A DNA stretch of 64,000 bases. Origin: Escherichia phage vB_Eco_F26. The DNA lies in the sequence record OP870145.1; one strand, given 5' to 3'. Below are positions 1 to 63,104 of the stretch, piece after piece; the first letter of the stretch is position 1; each line of letters starts with the position of its first letter. The position numbers were made by a program, and so were the translations under genes. The notes under the pieces were generated by a model. That model did not search any database and was not told the DNA's origin. It worked only from the letters and a program-made list of their open reading frames with translations.

Positions 1-2178
1 TTAGGCCGCAAGGGCCTTCATAGTTTTAGCGATTTGGGAAACTTCATCATCGCTCAAAGAGTTGCGATAACCGATGAAGTCGGAAACAATACGGAATTTC
101 TTGGTAAACTCAGCAACCATTTTATCACTATTTTTTGAAGCATTACGTGATAATTCATCAAAAAGATTAGTTACCGTCCAGATGTCATGACCGATGGTAT
201 CTTTTCCACCATTAAAATATACACCCTGTAATGAACTAACCATATTAGCGAGTCGTGTATATTCTTCAGAAACTTCATCTACACTGAAGTACTTCATCAT
301 AAAATCTAGTTCAGGATACTTAATAATTTTATCAATATATCGTTTAGCTGAACTTGAATAACCTACATACTTATCATAATCTACATCATCAAAAGCATCT
401 ACATATAAATCACGCAAAGCTTCAAAAATACATTGGCACTGACCGAGTTCTTTTACCTTTTTCTGTAAAAGCGGACGAATAACATAAAATTCATTAATGC
501 CAATAAGATTAGCCATACGAATCAAAATATTCATAGATGGATGACAAAGCGATGTAGTACCATCCATAGAGAAAATATCAGAACGATGCATGTATGCTAC
601 ATAACCAGTAATTTCATCTGCTTCTGATGTGAGCGTAAACAATTCCTCTTTTTCCCAGCGCCCGTCTTTAATTTCAAACTTAAATGCAGTAGCAGTTTTA
701 GGACGAGGAGCTGTACTTTTTACTGCCTTTGGAATATAACTTTTAACTAAAGCTTCAATTTCTGACAGATAATGAATGTTAACTTCATCACTTTCAAACA
801 TTGCGATAATATCAGGAAGCAAATCAATCTGCGATTCTACTTCCGGATTAATAAACAGAAGACGCTCATTGTGATGAATATTCAAAGTGTTATTAAATTC
901 ACTATCATCTAACGCGCGTGCTAATCCACGGACAATATTAACACGATTTTTAGTATTATCAATAACAATATTAATTTTTGTCGTATTAATACCAAACAGA
1001 CGATAGCTTGACGCAACGGCTGAAGTTTCATGGCTTTGCTTAATGCGTTTCAGTCGAGGGTCAAGATTTACTTCATACACAACCCCTGCATTGCATAACT
1101 TACTGTCAGGTTCAAACATGCTCTGCATCTTCTTATATGACAGATTTTTAGTCGTAAATTTGACTGAATTACTAATCATATAATCCCGAGCAGAATATCC
1201 CATCTTCATCAATTCACGGTATGTATGACGAGGAGATGTAGATTCTTTAAATCGTTTTACATCTTCATTGAATGCCTTCTCACTAAGCTCTTTAACACGC
1301 TCAATAATATTTTTACGAGTACGATCGTCCAGTGAAAGAGCCTCACGTGATGGAGCAATATCAAGTGAACCCATTGGAAACTTAATGTAATTCACTTCAT
1401 TGCGGATGCTTAACCAGTTACGGTCTCTAATAACACCATCAATAGGATAAACAATACCACCATAGATAGCATACAATCCGCCACGATCTGGCCAGTATCT
1501 TTCTGGATTTACACCGTAATAGTCATCAAAATCCGGAAAATAATCAATTTCGCGGTCAAGACCATTAATGATAGCCAAATCTTTGAATGGTCGCATGATA
1601 TAAGAAACTTCATAAGCAAAGTTTCTAAAGTCTTTTTCTTCAACCGGAACTACGATTTCAATACCAGTTTTATCGTCTGGACCCATTTCTTTTACGAATG
1701 TAGGTTTAATCTGCGGACCGTCACCATCCATGTAAGCTACATAACCACGAATTTCGCCTTTATGATATGAAGTAATACTAAATGTATCAGTATAACTAAA
1801 CGGAGATTTAGAACCTAAACCAAATCCACCAATGAAATCGTTAGATTCAGCCTTAGATGAACTGAAGTATGAATTATACAACCCAGGAGAATTATCATCA
1901 CCCTGAATATCAAAATCGCTCATACCCGGACCAAAATCTCGACAAACAAATCGCGAATCTAATCGTCCTGGAACTTGTATGATAAATTTTTCAGGATTTC
2001 CATTGAGAGCATGTGCATCAATCATGTTGGTAATCAATTCACGGACTACTGCGCGAATCTTGTTTGTGTACAAATCAGATGATAGAATTTTAAATACTTT
2101 AGGAGATGCTGTGATGCTAAATGCTTTTGATTTAGAACCATTACCAAGAATTGTTTCTTTTTCAGTGGTGATAATCAT
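1..2178 (-). CDS. rIIA: rIIA protein (725 aa), GHKL-type ATPase fold, membrane-associated; stop codon is at window start
   Basis: Full-length 725-aa ORF; N-terminal ExxxNxxDA motif ([11 protein letters not shown]) typical of GHKL ATPases; length and position match T4 rIIA. Confidence 0.85.
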
Positions 2179-2188
2179 AATTTCCTCA

Positions 2189-2392
2189 TTAATTCATATT
2201 GCGTTTAATAACTTCAGCAACTTCTAGTAGTTCATCTTTAGTTGCGGTGTCGGATTGAATTTTATCTCTAATATCCTTAAAGCGGTTTTTAAACTCTTCA
2301 GCTTCTCCCATATCGAAAAAGCGTTGAATGATTCTATATTCTCGATGAACTGCTTTATCAAAAAGTTCTAAATTTACTTTATATGATTTCAT
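2189..2392 (-). CDS. small hypothetical protein (67 aa), rIIA.1-like
   Basis: ORF immediately upstream of rIIA, same strand, tight spacing. Confidence 0.5.
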
Positions 2393-2417
2393 TCCAATAT
2401 CCTCATTTGCCCAATTA

Positions 2418-2447
2418 ATTATACCACATCCTTGTGGTAAAGTAAAC
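2418..2447 (-). promoter_or_regulatory. T4-type early promoter (GTTTAC -35, 18-bp spacer, TATAAT -10)
   Basis: Minus-strand reading GTTTAC-N18-TATAAT; overlaps 3' end of gene 60; same 32-bp sequence repeated at 51435-51466. Confidence 0.55.
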
Positions 2448-2979
2448 TACTGGCTCATCCATTCTTTACGAAGGTCAGCATTATCTCCCATGAGCATTTC
2501 AAAAAGCTCTTTCCAATTCTCAGGAAGTTTAACAACATCATATACTGGATTTTGAATCATCTCACGATATTCAGATTTTTCCAAAGAGCCAAGTCCTTTA
2601 ATATAACGGATGCTATGTTTAGGTAGAGCATCTTTGGCACTCTCATATTCAGCGACTGTATAAAACCATTCTTGTTTTTTACCGACCTGGGCGATGATTA
2701 CAGGAGTTTTGACAAAGCGAATACGTCCTTGCTCAAACAATTCTGGCCAATTACTAAAAAATCCTAGCAGAGAAGGATAAATAGAACCTAATCCAATAAT
2801 CTCTTAATTATGAGGTATTTCTATGGATAGCCCGAAGGCTATCCATCGTGATCTGCGTCTGTCATAATAGCGACATTCGCATAGTTCATTGAAGAGGATT
2901 TAATAGAACGACGAACATTGTTCTGCAATTTATATTTTTTCATATCAACGCTAGAAGAATCAATTTTTACAAATTTCAT
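2447..2979 (-). CDS. 60: DNA topoisomerase II large subunit C-terminal fragment gp60 (160 aa), translated in two segments (2979..2842 and 2791..2447) across a 50-nt untranslated gap
   Basis: Segment 1 encodes MKFVKIDSSSVDMKKYKLQNNVRRSIKSSSMNYANVAIMTDADHDG (46 aa) ending GGA-TAG; segment 2 resumes LGSIYPSLLGFFSNWPELFEQGRIRF...; 46+114=160 aa, matching recalled T4 gp60. Confidence 0.9.
2792..2841 (-). other. 50-nt translational bypass (coding gap) element with take-off hairpin
   Basis: mRNA reads GAU GGA UAG CCUUCGGGCUAUCC...UUGGA UUA; take-off GGA (2842-2844) followed by UAG stop inside an 8-bp stem with UUCG loop (2826-2845); landing GGA at 2792-2794; reading frame restored at UUA 2789-2791. 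Confidence 0.85.
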
Positions 2980-11977: not shown

Positions 11978-12580
11978 TTATAGATTAAATCCTTCAAAAT
12001 CAAGAGTATAGATAGTGTATGTTGAATACTTTTTATACTCATATCTATCCGCAATTCTAAATACACTTCCAGCTGGTATCATTACTTCTTGTTCATCTGA
12101 AACTAATTCCATATTACGATAGCGATGGCTATCCGGAAACTTAAAACTTGGACTGTATTCTTTACAACGTAGAGCTTTTATAGCATACTCCTGAAAATTA
12201 AATACCATAGGAGCTTTGAATTCAAAAATAACTTGCGTGTTGTATTCTAATCCAGAAGCAAAATGCAGAGCTATATTTTTATCATATGAAGCTGATACTA
12301 CTTTATCAAATGTAATAATATCAATTCCTTGATTTAACACCTGCTTAGTCTCAACTGGAACACCTCTCCAAAGAGGTTTATCGTTTGGAACCAAACGAGA
12401 TTTGATTATTTCATTTAACCAAGAATGATCGTCTGGCTTATTAGTAATACAATGAATTAAAAGTTCAATTTCAGATAAATTAAACCCTTCAGAAAGTAAT
12501 TCTTCACGAATAGAAGCACGCACAGATGCATCCATTGATTTTATTTTAAAATCTTTTAGTTGCATTACTGAGTATTTCAT
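11978..12580 (-). CDS. modA: ADP-ribosyltransferase ModA-like (200 aa)
   Basis: 200 aa, tandem with 207-aa paralog; matches T4 ModA/ModB lengths and locus. Confidence 0.65.
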   Translation of the reverse strand: MKYSVMQLKDFKIKSMDASVRASIREELLSEGFNLSEIELLIHCITNKPDDHSWLNEIIKSRLVPNDKPLWRGVPVETKQVLNQGIDIITFDKVVSASYDKNIALHFASGLEYNTQVIFEFKAPMVFNFQEYAIKALRCKEYSPSFKFPDSHRYRNMELVSDEQEVMIPAGSVFRIADRYEYKKYSTYTIYTLDFEGFNL

Positions 12581-13200
12581 TCAACTACCTCAATATCATA
12601 AACTTTAAATGTTCCAAATGAATCGTGTAATTTTTCTTTTGAAATAGAAGTTATTTTATACTTTCCAATTGGAATCATCCATTCTTGTTCACGCACAATC
12701 ATCATTAAGTTATCAGTACGCTCTGAATCTAGCCCATCAGTATCTTCATACGTGTACTTGAACTCAGTATTAGGAGAAGAAAGTATAATATCGCTGATAT
12801 GGTCAGAATAATTAAAAGCTTTATCAGTTTTTAAGCGAAATATTATTTCAGTGAAATACTCAACATAAGAAAAACCACATGCTGTGTGCAAACTAGTAGT
12901 AAATGAATCTACCCTGTTCGTTGAAAACACCTCTCCAACTTGTAAATCTTTAATGAGTTCTTTTGTCGATTTTGATATACCACGATATAGCTGATAAGGT
13001 GATTTAGTTAAATGCTTTTTAACGATTTTATTCAACTGCTGATGAAGAGCTTCATTCTTTTTGGCTTCCATACATTGCCAAAGAATTGACTGTTCAAAGT
13101 CAGTAAATTTTTCACAGACCTTTTTATACATATCATATTGAAAATCAACACTTTCAGCTTTTATAGATAACTGTTCAACATCTGCAAGATTAATAATCAT
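12577..13200 (-). CDS. modB: ADP-ribosyltransferase ModB-like (207 aa)
   Basis: Paralog of preceding ORF; 4-nt overlap. Confidence 0.65.
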   Translation of the reverse strand: MIINLADVEQLSIKAESVDFQYDMYKKVCEKFTDFEQSILWQCMEAKKNEALHQQLNKIVKKHLTKSPYQLYRGISKSTKELIKDLQVGEVFSTNRVDSFTTSLHTACGFSYVEYFTEIIFRLKTDKAFNYSDHISDIILSSPNTEFKYTYEDTDGLDSERTDNLMMIVREQEWMIPIGKYKITSISKEKLHDSFGTFKVYDIEVVE

Positions 13201-18317: not shown

Positions 18318-18674
18318 TTAACCTCTATTCATAAAAGCATTAAAAATTTGGTCATCAATAGATGGTGCAGTAATATTTTCTGCATCATTTAGCAAATCAT
18401 TAATTTCATCAGATAGCATAACACATGTACCTTTATTTCCTGTAATTGTTACTGCGCAATTACGAACGTTTTCTTTATTAAATTTTAGGTTAATATTTTC
18501 GTAATGAAAATCCTTTAATGCCGAATAAATCTTTAAAATGAAATTGTCTTTTACTACAATAAACCCAACCTCGCTATTAAAACGTGGTTCATGGAAACTG
18601 TAATAAACCTTTTCATCTATAAAATCGTATGAAATTTTTTCCATTTTTAAATATGAAAATTCAGAACTATGCAT
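18318..18674 (-). CDS. hypothetical protein (118 aa), 61.2-like
   Basis: ORF. Confidence 0.45.
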   Translation of the reverse strand: MHSSEFSYLKMEKISYDFIDEKVYYSFHEPRFNSEVGFIVVKDNFILKIYSALKDFHYENINLKFNKENVRNCAVTITGNKGTCVMLSDEINDLLNDAENITAPSIDDQIFNAFMNRG

Positions 18675-61133: not shown

Positions 61134-61715
61134 CTAACCGAGCTTTTTAGTTAATTCATTCCAATGTTTTCTGCACAAAGAAACATAAATTTCATCACCA
61201 ATACAGATTTGATTACCTTCTTTAACTGGTGTTCCATCTTCCATTAATCGAGCTGTCATAATAGCTTTTTTACCACAATGACAAACTGCTTTTAGTTCAA
61301 TAAGTTTATCTGCAATCGCCAAAAGTTCTTTAGAACCTTCAAATAATTTTCCAGCGAAATCAGTCCTTAATCCATAAGCCATAACAGGAACATTATATGT
61401 ATCAACAATTCGACTTAATTGATGCACTTGTTCAGTTTTTAAAAACTGAGCTTCATCTACAAATACGCAATGAATATCTTTTTGTGCTTCAGCCCATTTA
61501 TAGAACTCGAAAATATCCATATCATCTGTAATAATATTCGCTTCCTGTTTAATTCCAATGCGAGAAACAACTTCACAGACAGAATCGCGAGTATCAATAG
61601 CAGGCTTAAGAACTAATACACTCATTCCACGTTCTTTATAATTATGTGCAGCAGTCAAAAGAGAAGCAGATTTTCCAGCATTCATTGCTGCATAAGTAAA
61701 AATTAAACTCGCCAT
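61134..61715 (-). CDS. tk: thymidine kinase (193 aa)
   Basis: Walker A GAMNAGKS; C-terminal zinc site CHCG...C; 193 aa. Confidence 0.9.
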   Translation of the reverse strand: MASLIFTYAAMNAGKSASLLTAAHNYKERGMSVLVLKPAIDTRDSVCEVVSRIGIKQEANIITDDMDIFEFYKWAEAQKDIHCVFVDEAQFLKTEQVHQLSRIVDTYNVPVMAYGLRTDFAGKLFEGSKELLAIADKLIELKAVCHCGKKAIMTARLMEDGTPVKEGNQICIGDEIYVSLCRKHWNELTKKLG

Positions 61716-61905: not shown

Positions 61906-62093
61906 AAGGAATTTATATAATTAATAAGTTCTTGTTCTTTATTATCGAATTCTTTAGAAAGTTCTTCGTACTCGTTTGCACTAAAAGGACCGCATTCATT
62001 ACAAACTTTTTCCAATTCACTATTTTTATCCATAACTTCGTGGATAAGAGAAAAGAGTTTGTCTTTTTGTTCTTTACTTAAACTCATAACCAT
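61902..62093 (-). CDS. hypothetical protein (63 aa)
   Basis: ORF. Confidence 0.4.
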   Translation of the reverse strand: MVMSLSKEQKDKLFSLIHEVMDKNSELEKVCNECGPFSANEYEELSKEFDNKEQELINYINSL

Positions 62094-62311
62094 GTCACCT
62101 TTAAGCAGTATTCTTCTACATGCTGTTTACGACCTTTCTTATCAATAAAGGTATATTCAACGAATGTTCCAATGTAGTCTTTATCTACATCATGTGGACT
62201 ATTAATTGGACATTTAGTACGGCAAATGCGTTCCCATTGACGAATAATTACTGCCTTATTCTTTGGGTCATATGGATGTGGATAATGTATATTCATAATA
62301 ATGGTTCCCAA
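62084..62311 (-). CDS. hypothetical protein (75 aa)
   Basis: ORF. Confidence 0.4.
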   Translation of the reverse strand: MGTIIMNIHYPHPYDPKNKAVIIRQWERICRTKCPINSPHDVDKDYIGTFVEYTFIDKKGRKQHVEEYCLKVTWL

Positions 62312-62760
62312 TCAACAATCACAATTTCTAATTTAGAGGAATATGTATCTAAAATCCCCTCAATAATATCCCAGTTTCCTTTACCTATGCCTGCACCAAT
62401 CCTAGGCATATAGATTGTAGGTTTAATCAGTTTATTTTCACCAAACTCATTTAATTCTAACATACAATTCATTAAAGCGGAATATTCAAAATTTGGCCCT
62501 GGTTGAAATTGAGTATAAAGATTAAAGCAGTAAGCTTTATGAGTCCTAAAGTATTTTTCATAGACTGAGTAAGAACCAAGTTTAGTTACATCACCCCATT
62601 CAGTCTGTAATTTATCAGCTTCCAAAATTTTAGGGAAAGCTTTGGTTAATTGACCTGCGACTCCAGCTTTCATCGTATGAAAACAATTGCATCCATGCGC
62701 AATATTTTTACCTTCAGTGAAAAGGGCGACAATATCGCCCTTGATATATTTTACAATCAT
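62293..62760 (-). CDS. macro-domain protein (155 aa), predicted ADP-ribose binding/processing
   Basis: Macro-domain signatures GDIV...NIAHGCNCFHTMKAGVAG and IGAGIGKGNWDII. Confidence 0.55.
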   Translation of the reverse strand: MIVKYIKGDIVALFTEGKNIAHGCNCFHTMKAGVAGQLTKAFPKILEADKLQTEWGDVTKLGSYSVYEKYFRTHKAYCFNLYTQFQPGPNFEYSALMNCMLELNEFGENKLIKPTIYMPRIGAGIGKGNWDIIEGILDTYSSKLEIVIVDWEPLL

Positions 62761-63104
62761 CTAGTACTCAATCCTCGATTATAAGAATCTACCAAACGGT
62801 CAACCATTGAATGACAAGCGGCTTTATCTTTCTCCTCCGCAACTGAACATTCTAATGTATTCCACTTTTTAGCATATCGTTTTAATAATGTATCGTTTTT
62901 GTATCTGCTTGATTTATCTCTTTCTCCGTCTTTATATGCATATATTAATTTCTGCGCAAATTCAGCTTGGCATGCTTTATTTTTCCCACAATAATCTGCC
63001 GCAGTGCGATTTACATATTCTCTAATTTCAGTATATGATGTATCTGCTGACGCAGAAGCAGAAAATGAAATTAATCCTATACATAAAACCAAAATTTTAG
63101 TCAT
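62757..63104 (-). CDS. secreted protein (115 aa), vs-like position
   Basis: Signal peptide MTKILVLCIGLISFSASASA; four cysteines. Confidence 0.45.
   Translation of the reverse strand: MTKILVLCIGLISFSASASADTSYTEIREYVNRTAADYCGKNKACQAEFAQKLIYAYKDGERDKSSRYKNDTLLKRYAKKWNTLECSVAEEKDKAACHSMVDRLVDSYNRGLSTR

What the first reader, a model, noticed from the sequence alone, without database searches (positions are those of the whole stretch)
62293..62760. Macro-domain protein near thymidine kinase
A 155-aa ORF has macro-domain signatures (GDIV...HGCNC...MKAGVAG; IGAGIGKG). Macro domains bind or hydrolyse ADP-ribose adducts. In a phage that encodes ADP-ribosyltransferases it could reverse or edit ADP-ribosylation, or counter host ADP-ribose/NAD-based defence.
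Basis: partly seen in the sequence, partly recalled or inferred. Interest (0 to 1): 0.45.

Follow-up and report, generated by a model that had tools for sequence, protein, structure and literature searches.

The report
T4 tk.4/adfM anti-DarTG2 macrodomain gene
This ORF is the T4-like phage gene tk.4, a small macrodomain (ADP-ribose-removing) protein recently named AdfM because T4 needs it to resist the bacterial DarTG2 defence, so the finding is correct but already known.

Summary
The 155-aa ORF is real. It passes Pfam's Macro threshold. A high-confidence model (pLDDT 92) matches the solved TARG1, Poa1p, BT1257, DarG and SCO6735 macrodomains. The window is a Tequatrovirus, and the protein is 152/155 identical to T4 Tk.4, in the same vs–tk.4–tk.3 gene order.

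The A1pp/macro domain of tk.4 was noted in 2006. A 2025 preprint (HIDEN-SEQ) found tk.4 as the only T4 gene needed against DarTG2. A clean knockout sensitised T4, and the gene was renamed adfM.

One detail appears to be new. The T4-type protein lacks the catalytic lysine of DarG, TARG1 and PhiKZ AdfM. It has a glutamine there (Q84), invariant in 120/120 relatives, as in Streptomyces SCO6735. SCO6735 is a proven thymidine-ADP-ribose DNA hydrolase that depends on that glutamine. T4 AdfM and PhiKZ AdfM are therefore different macrodomain subfamilies sharing one name.

The most likely mechanism is hydrolytic removal of DarT2-added ADP-ribose from thymidines in phage single-stranded DNA. The role is shown genetically for T4. 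The chemistry is inferred.

Verdict: correct observation, supported interpretation, already known, low interest.

The parts
62293..62760 (-). tk.4 / adfM coding sequence, 155 aa: a standalone macrodomain protein.
   Evidence: ORF. Pfam Macro above threshold. 152/155 identical to T4 Tk.4. Model pLDDT 92. Fold matches to TARG1, Poa1p, BT1257, DarG and SCO6735.
62653..62697 (-). Loop 1, residues 22-36 (HGCNCFHTMKAGVAG). It holds the conserved Asn25, which aligns with DarG N22, PhiKZ AdfM N23 and SCO6735 N27, and the invariant Gly33.
   Evidence: N25 is present in 119/120 relatives and G33 in 120/120. hmmalign places the DarG and SCO6735 Asn in the N25 column at top posterior probability. N27S nearly kills SCO6735 (PMC9411070). 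The PhiKZ N23A mutant has reduced activity (PMC13309987).
62509..62523 (-). Residues 80-84 (NLYTQ). Gln84 sits where TARG1 has K84 and DarG has K80, and where SCO6735 has Q85.
   Evidence: Codon checked in the sequence (ttg on + = CAA on -). Q84 is present in 120/120 relatives. MAFFT alignment A2 and hmmalign at top posterior agree. HMMER aligns the family Q with SCO6735 Q85. The published structural superposition equates Q85 with K84 and K80, and Q85A is inactive.
62371..62406 (-). Loop 2, residues 119-130 (PRIGAGIGKGNW): the glycine-rich diphosphate-binding loop. G122 and G124 align with SCO6735 G126 and G128. The TARG1 D125 position is Gly here.
   Evidence: P119, I121 and G124 are 120/120. 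Position 126 is A or G in all 120. SCO6735 G128E has reduced activity.
62757..62760 (-). ATGA overlap: the vs stop codon (TGA) overlaps the tk.4 start codon (ATG).
   Evidence: vs ORF at 62757..63104 and tk.4 at 62293..62760. Bases read. The same arrangement is annotated in T4.
62293..62296 (-). ATGA overlap: the tk.4 stop codon (TGA) overlaps the ATG of tk.3 (MNIHYPH...).
   Evidence: Sequence. The T4 annotation has tk.3 ending 4 bases inside tk.4 (locus 2085..2297 versus 2294..2761).

Best explanation
The ORF is the orthologue of phage T4 tk.4, now called adfM (anti-DarT factor, macrodomain). It is a free-standing ALC1/TARG1-like macrodomain. It is made from a chain of overlapping minus-strand ORFs running vs.1-vs-tk.4-tk.3-tk.2-tk.1-tk.

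When the host carries the DarTG2 toxin-antitoxin defence, DarT2 attaches ADP-ribose to thymidines in single-stranded DNA and blocks replication. AdfM most likely binds the ADP-ribosyl-thymidine and hydrolyses the N-glycosidic bond, releasing ADP-ribose and restoring the template. It would thus act as an orphan antitoxin.

The active site is not the lysine type found in DarG and TARG1. It is the glutamine type of SCO6735. There, Gln (here Q84), held in place by Asn (here N25), positions the distal ribose, and a backbone-held water starts catalysis.

Shown here: identity with tk.4, the fold, and the binding and active-site residues. Shown in the literature for T4: tk.4 is required for resistance to DarTG2. 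Inferred: hydrolysis of T-linked ADP-ribose by this protein, and the Gln-dependent mechanism.
For: - Orthology: 98% identity to T4 Tk.4, and 98-99% DNA identity and the same gene order as T4 and T6.
- Genetics in T4: tk.4 was the single significant hit on a DarTG2 host, the knockout is sensitised, and the gene was renamed adfM. T4 lacking adfA and adfN stays DarTG2-resistant, so another factor had to exist.
- Fold and class.
- Active site: Q84 and N25 are (near-)invariant and align with SCO6735 Q85 and N27.
- Precedent: SCO6735 removes ADP-ribose from DarT-modified oligonucleotides, rescues E. coli from DarT, and Q85A is inactive (PMC9411070).
- Independent phage precedent: PhiKZ AdfM de-ADP-ribosylates DarT2-modified DNA in vitro (PMC13309987).
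- The only PADLOC and NCBIfam families hit are DarG.
Against: - I found no biochemical assay of T4 Tk.4 itself in the searchable literature. The T4 evidence is a preprint showing necessity, not sufficiency or activity.
- The protein lacks the catalytic lysine of DarG and TARG1.
- It differs from SCO6735 at three points. Gly23 replaces Val25. There is no Lys at the K34 position. The long lysine-bearing mobile loop is missing. The SCO6735 mechanism may therefore not transfer exactly.
- The DarG family scores are weak: 29 bits against 133 for PhiKZ gp104, and 24 bits against a cut-off of 250.
- Catalytically dead SCO6735 still inhibits DarT by binding, so hydrolysis need not be the only mode of action.
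Confidence: 0.8

Rival explanations
1. Tk.4 protects mainly without catalysis. It binds and inhibits DarT2, or shields ADP-ribosylated DNA, rather than hydrolysing the adduct.
For: Catalytically dead SCO6735 Q85A, DarG K80A and TARG1 K84A all inhibit DarT in vitro, and SCO6735 does so most strongly. Tk.4 lacks the catalytic lysine.
Against: - The residues that matter for SCO6735 catalysis (N25, Q84, G122, G124) are (near-)invariant across 120 relatives from very different phages and hosts. That pattern fits a conserved small-ligand active site better than adaptation to varied DarT2 surfaces.
- Tk.4 has no counterpart of the DarG C-terminal DarT-binding domain. It matches only profile positions 2-145 of 329.
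Confidence: 0.1
2. Tk.4 processes soluble ADP-ribose derivatives instead of, or in addition to, DNA adducts. Candidates are ADP-ribose-1''-phosphate (Poa1p-like phosphatase), O-acetyl-ADP-ribose and cyclic ADPR immune signals. This would tie it to NAD+ salvage or RNA-repair modules.
For: - Yeast Poa1p is among the closest solved relatives.
- The Poa1p H23 position is conserved as H22.
- Database labels read 'phosphatase' or 'O-acetyl-ADP-ribose deacetylase'.
- In Acinetobacter phage TAC1 and Vibrio phage ABurr the homologue sits between PRPP synthetase and nicotinamide/nicotinate phosphoribosyltransferase, near RNA ligase 2. In two other T4-like contigs it lies near Rnl1 or PNKP.
- Iyer et al. 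argue that phage macrodomains mainly target small ADPr derivatives (PMC9503650).
Against: - The only phenotype reported for tk.4 is DarTG2 sensitivity.
- Poa1p has Ser, not Gln, at position 84. Its Phe152 position is Gly/Ala in this family.
- The labels are inherited domain names, not tests.
- In this window tk.4 has no NAD-salvage neighbours.
Confidence: 0.15
3. Tk.4 reverses or tunes ADP-ribosylation or RNAylation of host proteins made by the phage's own Alt, ModA and ModB enzymes.
For: modA and modB lie in the same window. SCO6735 and TARG1 also remove Glu/Asp-linked ADP-ribose from proteins.
Against: - Alt and Mod enzymes modify arginine (my own knowledge, not checked here). None of the close relatives was reported with arginine-ADP-ribose activity in the papers read here.
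- tk.4 is about 49 kb from modA/modB, so there is no linkage.
- tk.4 was identified there as conditionally essential, with read counts reduced specifically in the presence of DarTG2.
Confidence: 0.04

Closest known systems
Phage T4 Tk.4 = AdfM (anti-DarT factor macrodomain; HIDEN-SEQ preprint, bioRxiv 10.1101/2025.11.20.689424)
   Same: 152/155 residues identical, same length, and same position between vs and tk.3 with the same overlapping start and stop codons.
   Different: Three substitutions relative to T4: T15 (T4 A), K31 (T4 G) and A32 (T4 S). The last two lie in loop 1, next to the ADP-ribose site. K31 is rare, at 5/120 relatives.
Streptomyces coelicolor SCO6735 (PDB 5E3B) and Bacteroides BT1257 (PDB 2FG1/2AFC)
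   Same: - Standalone ALC1-like macrodomains.
- Gln in place of the catalytic Lys (Q85 = Q84).
- The Asn, His and two loop-2 Gly residues are conserved.
- SCO6735 hydrolyses thymidine-linked ADP-ribose on ssDNA and neutralises DarT.
   Different: - Only about 20-29% identity.
- Tk.4 has Gly23 where SCO6735 has Val25.
- Tk.4 has no Lys at the K34 position.
- Tk.4 has a short mobile loop without K89/K94, like TARG1 and DarG.
- One is cellular and the other phage-borne.
DarG antitoxin macrodomain of DarTG2 (T. aquaticus 5M31/5M3E, M. tuberculosis 5M3I)
   Same: Same fold and class (E 2.4e-7 to 1.2e-6, TM about 0.74). The Asn is conserved. The 'FN-x-x-T' strand precedes the catalytic position. Both antagonise DarT2.
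   Different: - The catalytic K80 is replaced by Q84.
- There is no C-terminal DarT-binding domain.
- There is no neighbouring darT.
- The score is far below family thresholds.
PhiKZ gp104 AdfM (chimallivirus DarG2-like antitoxin, Cell Rep 2026, PMC13309987)
   Same: A phage-encoded standalone macrodomain with the same name and the same target system. De-ADP-ribosylation of DarT2-modified DNA was shown in vitro.
   Different: - gp104 is a true DarG-type domain. It scores E 9e-25 to Mtb DarG and 133 bits on the DarG model, and it keeps the lysine (K78).
- Against Tk.4, BLASTP finds only a 23-residue match at E 0.017.
- It is imported into a phage nucleus, which T4 lacks.
Human TARG1/OARD1 (PDB 4J5R/4J5S) and yeast Poa1p (6LFQ)
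   Same: These are the best structural matches, with the same loop architecture and the same short mobile loop.
   Different: The TARG1 K84/D125 dyad is Q84/G126 here. Poa1p has Ser at position 84 and is an ADPr-1''-phosphate phosphatase.

Membership tests
Macro domain superfamily (Pfam PF01661) | Profile match above the curated threshold | tested here: met
   25 bits against a cut-off of 22, E 1.9e-5, profile positions 2-113 of 118.
Macro domain superfamily (Pfam PF01661) | Alpha/beta macro fold | tested here: met
   AF2 model with pLDDT 92. 148 PDB matches at E<=0.001. The listed matches are macrodomains or enzymes designed on macrodomain scaffolds.
Macro domain superfamily (Pfam PF01661) | ADP-ribose-binding elements: N-terminal Asp, the Asn/GxG loop 1, and the P-x-I-G-x-G loop 2 | tested here: met
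   D9, N25, G33, P119, I121, G122 and G124 are present and (near-)invariant in 120 relatives.
ALC1-like (TARG1/DarG/SCO6735/Poa1p) macrodomain class | Closest sequence and structure relatives all belong to this class | tested here: met
   All 15 profile hits in the PDB and the top 17 Foldseek hits are TARG1, Poa1p, BT1257, SCO6735 or DarG.
T4 Tk.4 / AdfM orthologous group | Near-identity and conserved gene order with T4 tk.4 | tested here: met
   98% identity. The vs-tk.4-tk.3 order and overlaps match T4.
T4 Tk.4 / AdfM orthologous group | Required for phage growth on DarTG2 hosts | not testable with these tools
   Reported for T4 itself. Not tested for this phage.
DarG antitoxin (DarTG2) | Catalytic lysine (Taq K80) | tested here: not met
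   Gln84 occupies that column, at top posterior probability. It is Gln in 120/120 relatives.
DarG antitoxin (DarTG2) | C-terminal DarT-binding domain and full-length family score | tested here: not met
   The protein is 155 aa and matches only positions 2-145 of 329 (PADLOC, 29 bits) and 2-146 of 338 (NCBIfam, 24.3 bits against a cut-off of 250).
DarG antitoxin (DarTG2) | Encoded next to darT | tested here: not met
   The neighbours are vs and tk.3. Contigs labelled as bacterial that carry homologues are T4-like phage DNA without darT.
SCO6735/BT1257 glutamine-type macrodomains | Gln at the catalytic position, supported by the conserved Asn | tested here: met
   Q84 aligns with Q85 and N25 with N27.
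SCO6735/BT1257 glutamine-type macrodomains | Val/Ile at the Val25 position, Lys34, and the extended mobile loop carrying K89/K94 | tested here: not met
   Gly23 is present in 119/120 relatives. Position 32 is A or S. The loop is 5-7 residues shorter than in SCO6735 and BT1257.
SCO6735/BT1257 glutamine-type macrodomains | Hydrolysis of thymidine-linked ADP-ribose on ssDNA | not testable with these tools
   Shown for SCO6735. Only inferred for Tk.4.
TARG1 (Lys/Asp dyad glycohydrolase) | K84 and D125 | tested here: not met
   Q84 and G126 occupy those columns. The TARG1 sequence was verified against PDB 2LGR.
Poa1p-type ADP-ribose-1''-phosphate phosphatase ('phosphatase' label of PHROG 335) | The residues probed in the Poa1p structures: H23, S30 and F152 | tested here: inconclusive
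   H22 is conserved. The S30 position is Thr29. The F152 position is Gly/Ala. Activity was not tested.

The most novel reading that the evidence does not exclude
T4-type AdfM is a lysine-less, glutamine-type macrodomain. It was recruited by phages independently of the DarG-type AdfM of chimalliviruses. Like SCO6735 and TARG1, it may have a wider substrate range than T-ADPr DNA. Candidates are uracil-ADPr on RNA, Glu/Asp-ADPr on proteins, and soluble ADPr derivatives feeding the NAD-salvage genes it neighbours in some phages. Its role in the more than 2700 phage genomes that carry it would then go beyond DarTG2.
Probability: 0.3. Interest if true: 0.4.

Novelty: already known. Interest (0 to 1): 0.15.

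Why it matters
The gene illustrates how T-even phages stack several countermeasures against DNA ADP-ribosylating defences: AdfA (gene 61.2), AdfN (gene 30.3) and AdfM (tk.4). That picture is already published.

What this analysis adds is small:
- The widespread 'phosphatase' and 'O-acetyl-ADP-ribose deacetylase' labels on this family are inherited domain names, not tested functions. They probably mislead.
- The two proteins called AdfM, from T4 and PhiKZ, belong to different macrodomain subfamilies with different catalytic residues.
- A direct enzymatic test of the T4 protein, including a Q84 mutant, still appears to be missing.

Tried and rejected
- **hhalign and hmmalign with PhiKZ gp104.** Both place PhiKZ K78 two columns away from Q84, at low confidence. 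I did not rely on them. Instead I used the clear gp104-DarG alignment (FPTKDNWR / FPTKKHWR) together with the top-confidence DarG-to-family alignment.
- **Cellular origin next to darT.** I checked homologues labelled as bacterial, from Bacilli and Culicoidibacterales MAGs. Both contigs are T4-like phage DNA carrying Rnl1, PNKP, a Dda-like helicase, spanin and dCMP deaminase. Neither has darT.
- **Promoter and terminator scan around the gene.** There were 12 promoter-like sites against 16.4 expected, so nothing can be concluded about transcription.
- **NCBIfam.** It returned only a far sub-threshold DarG match, so it supplies no usable name.
- **N25-Q84 geometry in the model.** I wanted to measure it, but the model coordinates are not exposed to scripts.
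- **CmdTAC.** I considered whether Tk.4 might also erase CmdT mRNA ADP-ribosylation. Wild-type T4 is strongly restricted by CmdTAC, and that modification is described as irreversible. I rejected the idea.

Full report
**Observation.** One search lists a 155-aa ORF at 62293..62760 on the minus strand, starting with ATG. Thymidine kinase lies at 61134..61715 on the same strand, three small ORFs downstream. The tk.4 start codon overlaps the stop codon of the upstream ORF (vs, 62757..63104) as ATGA. Its stop codon overlaps the ATG of the downstream ORF (tk.3) in the same way. The gene therefore sits in a chain of tightly packed, probably translationally coupled ORFs.

**Is it a macrodomain?** Yes, on four lines of evidence.
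- Pfam Macro (PF01661) is matched above the curated threshold, at 25 against 22 bits and E 1.9e-5, over nearly the whole profile.
- The single sequence finds the solved macrodomains BT1257, Poa1p, TARG1 and DarG. A profile of 28 relatives raises these to E 1.5e-16 (BT1257), 4e-15 (Poa1p), 3e-14 (SCO6735), 2e-13 (TARG1), and 1.5e-12 and 3e-10 (the M. tuberculosis and T. aquaticus DarG macrodomains).
- An AlphaFold2 model built on that alignment is confident, with pLDDT 92 and pTM 0.88. Its best Foldseek matches are TARG1, Poa1p, BT1257, DarG and SCO6735, at TM 0.7-0.8.
- The ligand-binding elements are conserved across 120 relatives: D/N9, N25, G33, P119, I121, G122 and G124.

**What is the gene?** The surrounding 2.9 kb is 98-99% identical to T4, T6 and many other Tequatrovirus genomes. 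The protein is 152/155 identical to the product of the gene between vs and tk.3 in phage T4, which is tk.4. Records annotate it variously as 'macro domain containing protein', 'high-affinity ADP-ribose binding module protein', 'phosphatase' or 'hypothetical protein'. The A1pp/macro domain of tk.4 orthologues was already reported in 2006 (PMC1524935). tblastn finds homologues in 2727 phage records from many host genera.

**What does it do?** A 2025 preprint on transposon mapping of T4 gene essentiality (bioRxiv 10.1101/2025.11.20.689424) addresses this directly.
- When the T4 library infected a host expressing DarTG2, tk.4 was the single significant hit.
- A clean tk.4 knockout sensitised T4 to DarTG2.
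- The authors named the gene adfM (anti-DarT factor macrodomain). From structural similarity to M. tuberculosis DarG, they proposed that it removes ADP-ribose from DNA.

This fits earlier work. T4 lacking both adfA and adfN remained DarTG2-resistant, which implied a further factor (PMC11825919). An independent paper gave the same name to PhiKZ gp104. It showed in vitro that gp104 removes ADP-ribose from DarT2-modified DNA (PMC13309987). I found no biochemical assay of T4 Tk.4 itself.

**A point the T4 preprint does not discuss.** I aligned Tk.4 with TARG1, the two DarG macrodomains, PhiKZ gp104, SCO6735, BT1257 and Poa1p. I first checked my recalled TARG1 sequence against PDB 2LGR and found it identical over the aligned residues 2-152. 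The catalytic lysine of TARG1 (K84) and DarG (K80) falls on Gln84 of Tk.4. MAFFT shows this, and hmmalign to a 120-sequence family model confirms it at top posterior probability.
- Gln84 is invariant in 120/120 relatives.
- The TARG1 D125 position is always Gly or Ala.
- SCO6735 and BT1257 carry the same Gln.

SCO6735 is well characterised (PMC9411070). It cleaves thymidine-linked ADP-ribose from DarT-modified ssDNA and rescues cells from DarT. It loses all activity when Gln85 is changed to Ala and nearly all when Asn27 is changed to Ser. Its authors propose a lysine-independent, water-mediated mechanism. Tk.4 keeps the equivalents of H24, N27, Q85, G126 and G128, as H22, N25, Q84, G122 and G124. 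It differs in three respects: Gly23 stands in place of Val25, there is no Lys at the K34 position, and the short mobile loop resembles that of TARG1 and DarG.

PhiKZ gp104, by contrast, is a genuine DarG-type domain. It scores E 9e-25 to Mtb DarG and 133 bits on the PADLOC DarG model against 29 bits for Tk.4, and it retains K78. Against Tk.4, BLASTP finds only a 23-residue match. The two 'AdfM' proteins are thus distant relatives within the ALC1-like class. They have different catalytic residues and were probably recruited separately.

**Membership.** The protein belongs to the macro superfamily, to the ALC1-like class and to the T4 Tk.4/AdfM orthologous group. It is not a DarG. It has no catalytic lysine, no DarT-binding domain and no neighbouring darT, and it scores 24 bits against a 250-bit cut-off. 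Homologues labelled as bacterial lie on T4-like phage contigs without darT. It shares the Gln/Asn signature of SCO6735 but not the extended loop.

**Mechanism and rivals.**
- *Best explanation (confidence about 0.8 for the role, lower for the chemistry).* The protein hydrolyses ADP-ribosyl-thymidine made by host DarT2 on phage ssDNA, at a Gln84/Asn25 active site of the SCO6735 type.
- *Binding inhibition of DarT2.* This is possible, because dead SCO6735 inhibits DarT. The invariance of the active-site residues across diverse phages argues for catalysis.
- *A role on soluble ADP-ribose derivatives.* This cannot be excluded. Poa1p is a close relative. In Acinetobacter phage TAC1 and Vibrio phage ABurr the homologue sits between PRPP synthetase and a nicotinamide/nicotinate phosphoribosyltransferase, near RNA ligase 2.
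- *Reversal of the phage's own ModA/ModB marks.* modA and modB are in this window at 11981..13200. This role is unlikely. Those marks are arginine-linked (my own knowledge), and none of the close relatives was reported with that activity in the papers I read.

Wild-type T4 is still restricted by CmdTAC, so Tk.4 is not a universal ADP-ribose eraser.

**Verdict.** The gene and its anti-defence role are already described, so novelty is 'already known' and interest is low. Two points remain open: the Gln-for-Lys active site, with the resulting split between T4-type and PhiKZ-type AdfM, and the lack of direct enzymology for the T4 protein.

Noticed in passing
window 62722..62742 (inside the 5' end of tk.4, codons 7-13): A perfect 8-bp GC-rich hairpin (AAGGGCGA-CAATA-TCGCCCTT) followed by a T-rich run on the + strand, antisense to tk.4. 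It was the top terminator-like hit in the scan. One related record (vB_EcoM_DalCa) annotates a 'terminator' under the tk.4 match. It could stop antisense transcription or structure the tk.4 mRNA.
   Followed up: no
window 18318..18674 (-): At the position of gene 61.2 (adfA, the anti-DarTG1 factor) the window has only a 118-aa ORF. It is 29% identical to the C-terminal part of the 208-aa T6 gp61.2. This phage therefore seems to carry a short, divergent allele.
   Followed up: partly
L004 4001..4474 (Acinetobacter phage TAC1); L005 4004..4480 (Vibrio phage ABurr): In two unrelated phages, Tk.4-family macrodomain genes sit directly between PRPP synthetase and nicotinamide/nicotinate phosphoribosyltransferase genes, close to RNA ligase 2. 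This hints at a link to phage NAD+ salvage modules.
   Followed up: partly
L006 and L007 (GCA_051648945.1 and GCA_051660865.1 contigs): Contigs deposited as Bacilli and Culicoidibacterales MAG sequence carry T4-like phage genes: Rnl1, PNKP, a Dda-like helicase, T4 spanin and dCMP deaminase. They are probably phage DNA binned into bacterial MAGs.
   Followed up: no
window 62084..62296 versus L001 2585..3170: The window, like T4, has a single small ORF (tk.3) between tk.2 and tk.4. vB_Eco-B1.1 carries about 373 bp more there, with two additional small ORFs. T6 and several other relatives match in two pieces with a similar size difference.
   Followed up: no
window 62665..62670 (codons 31-32 of tk.4): This phage has Lys31-Ala32 where T4 has Gly31-Ser32, in loop 1 next to the ADP-ribose site. 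Lys at position 31 occurs in only 5/120 relatives. It lies one residue from the position of the SCO6735 DNA-binding Lys34.
   Followed up: no
window 11981..13200 (-): modA (11981..12580) and modB (12580..13200), the T4 ADP-ribosyltransferase genes, are present at about 97.5% identity to T6.
   Followed up: partly
window 62293..62760: PHROG 335, and hence pharokka-style annotations, label this family 'phosphatase'. JGI labels it 'O-acetyl-ADP-ribose deacetylase (regulator of RNase III)'. Both are inherited domain names that do not match the reported anti-DarTG2 role.
   Followed up: yes
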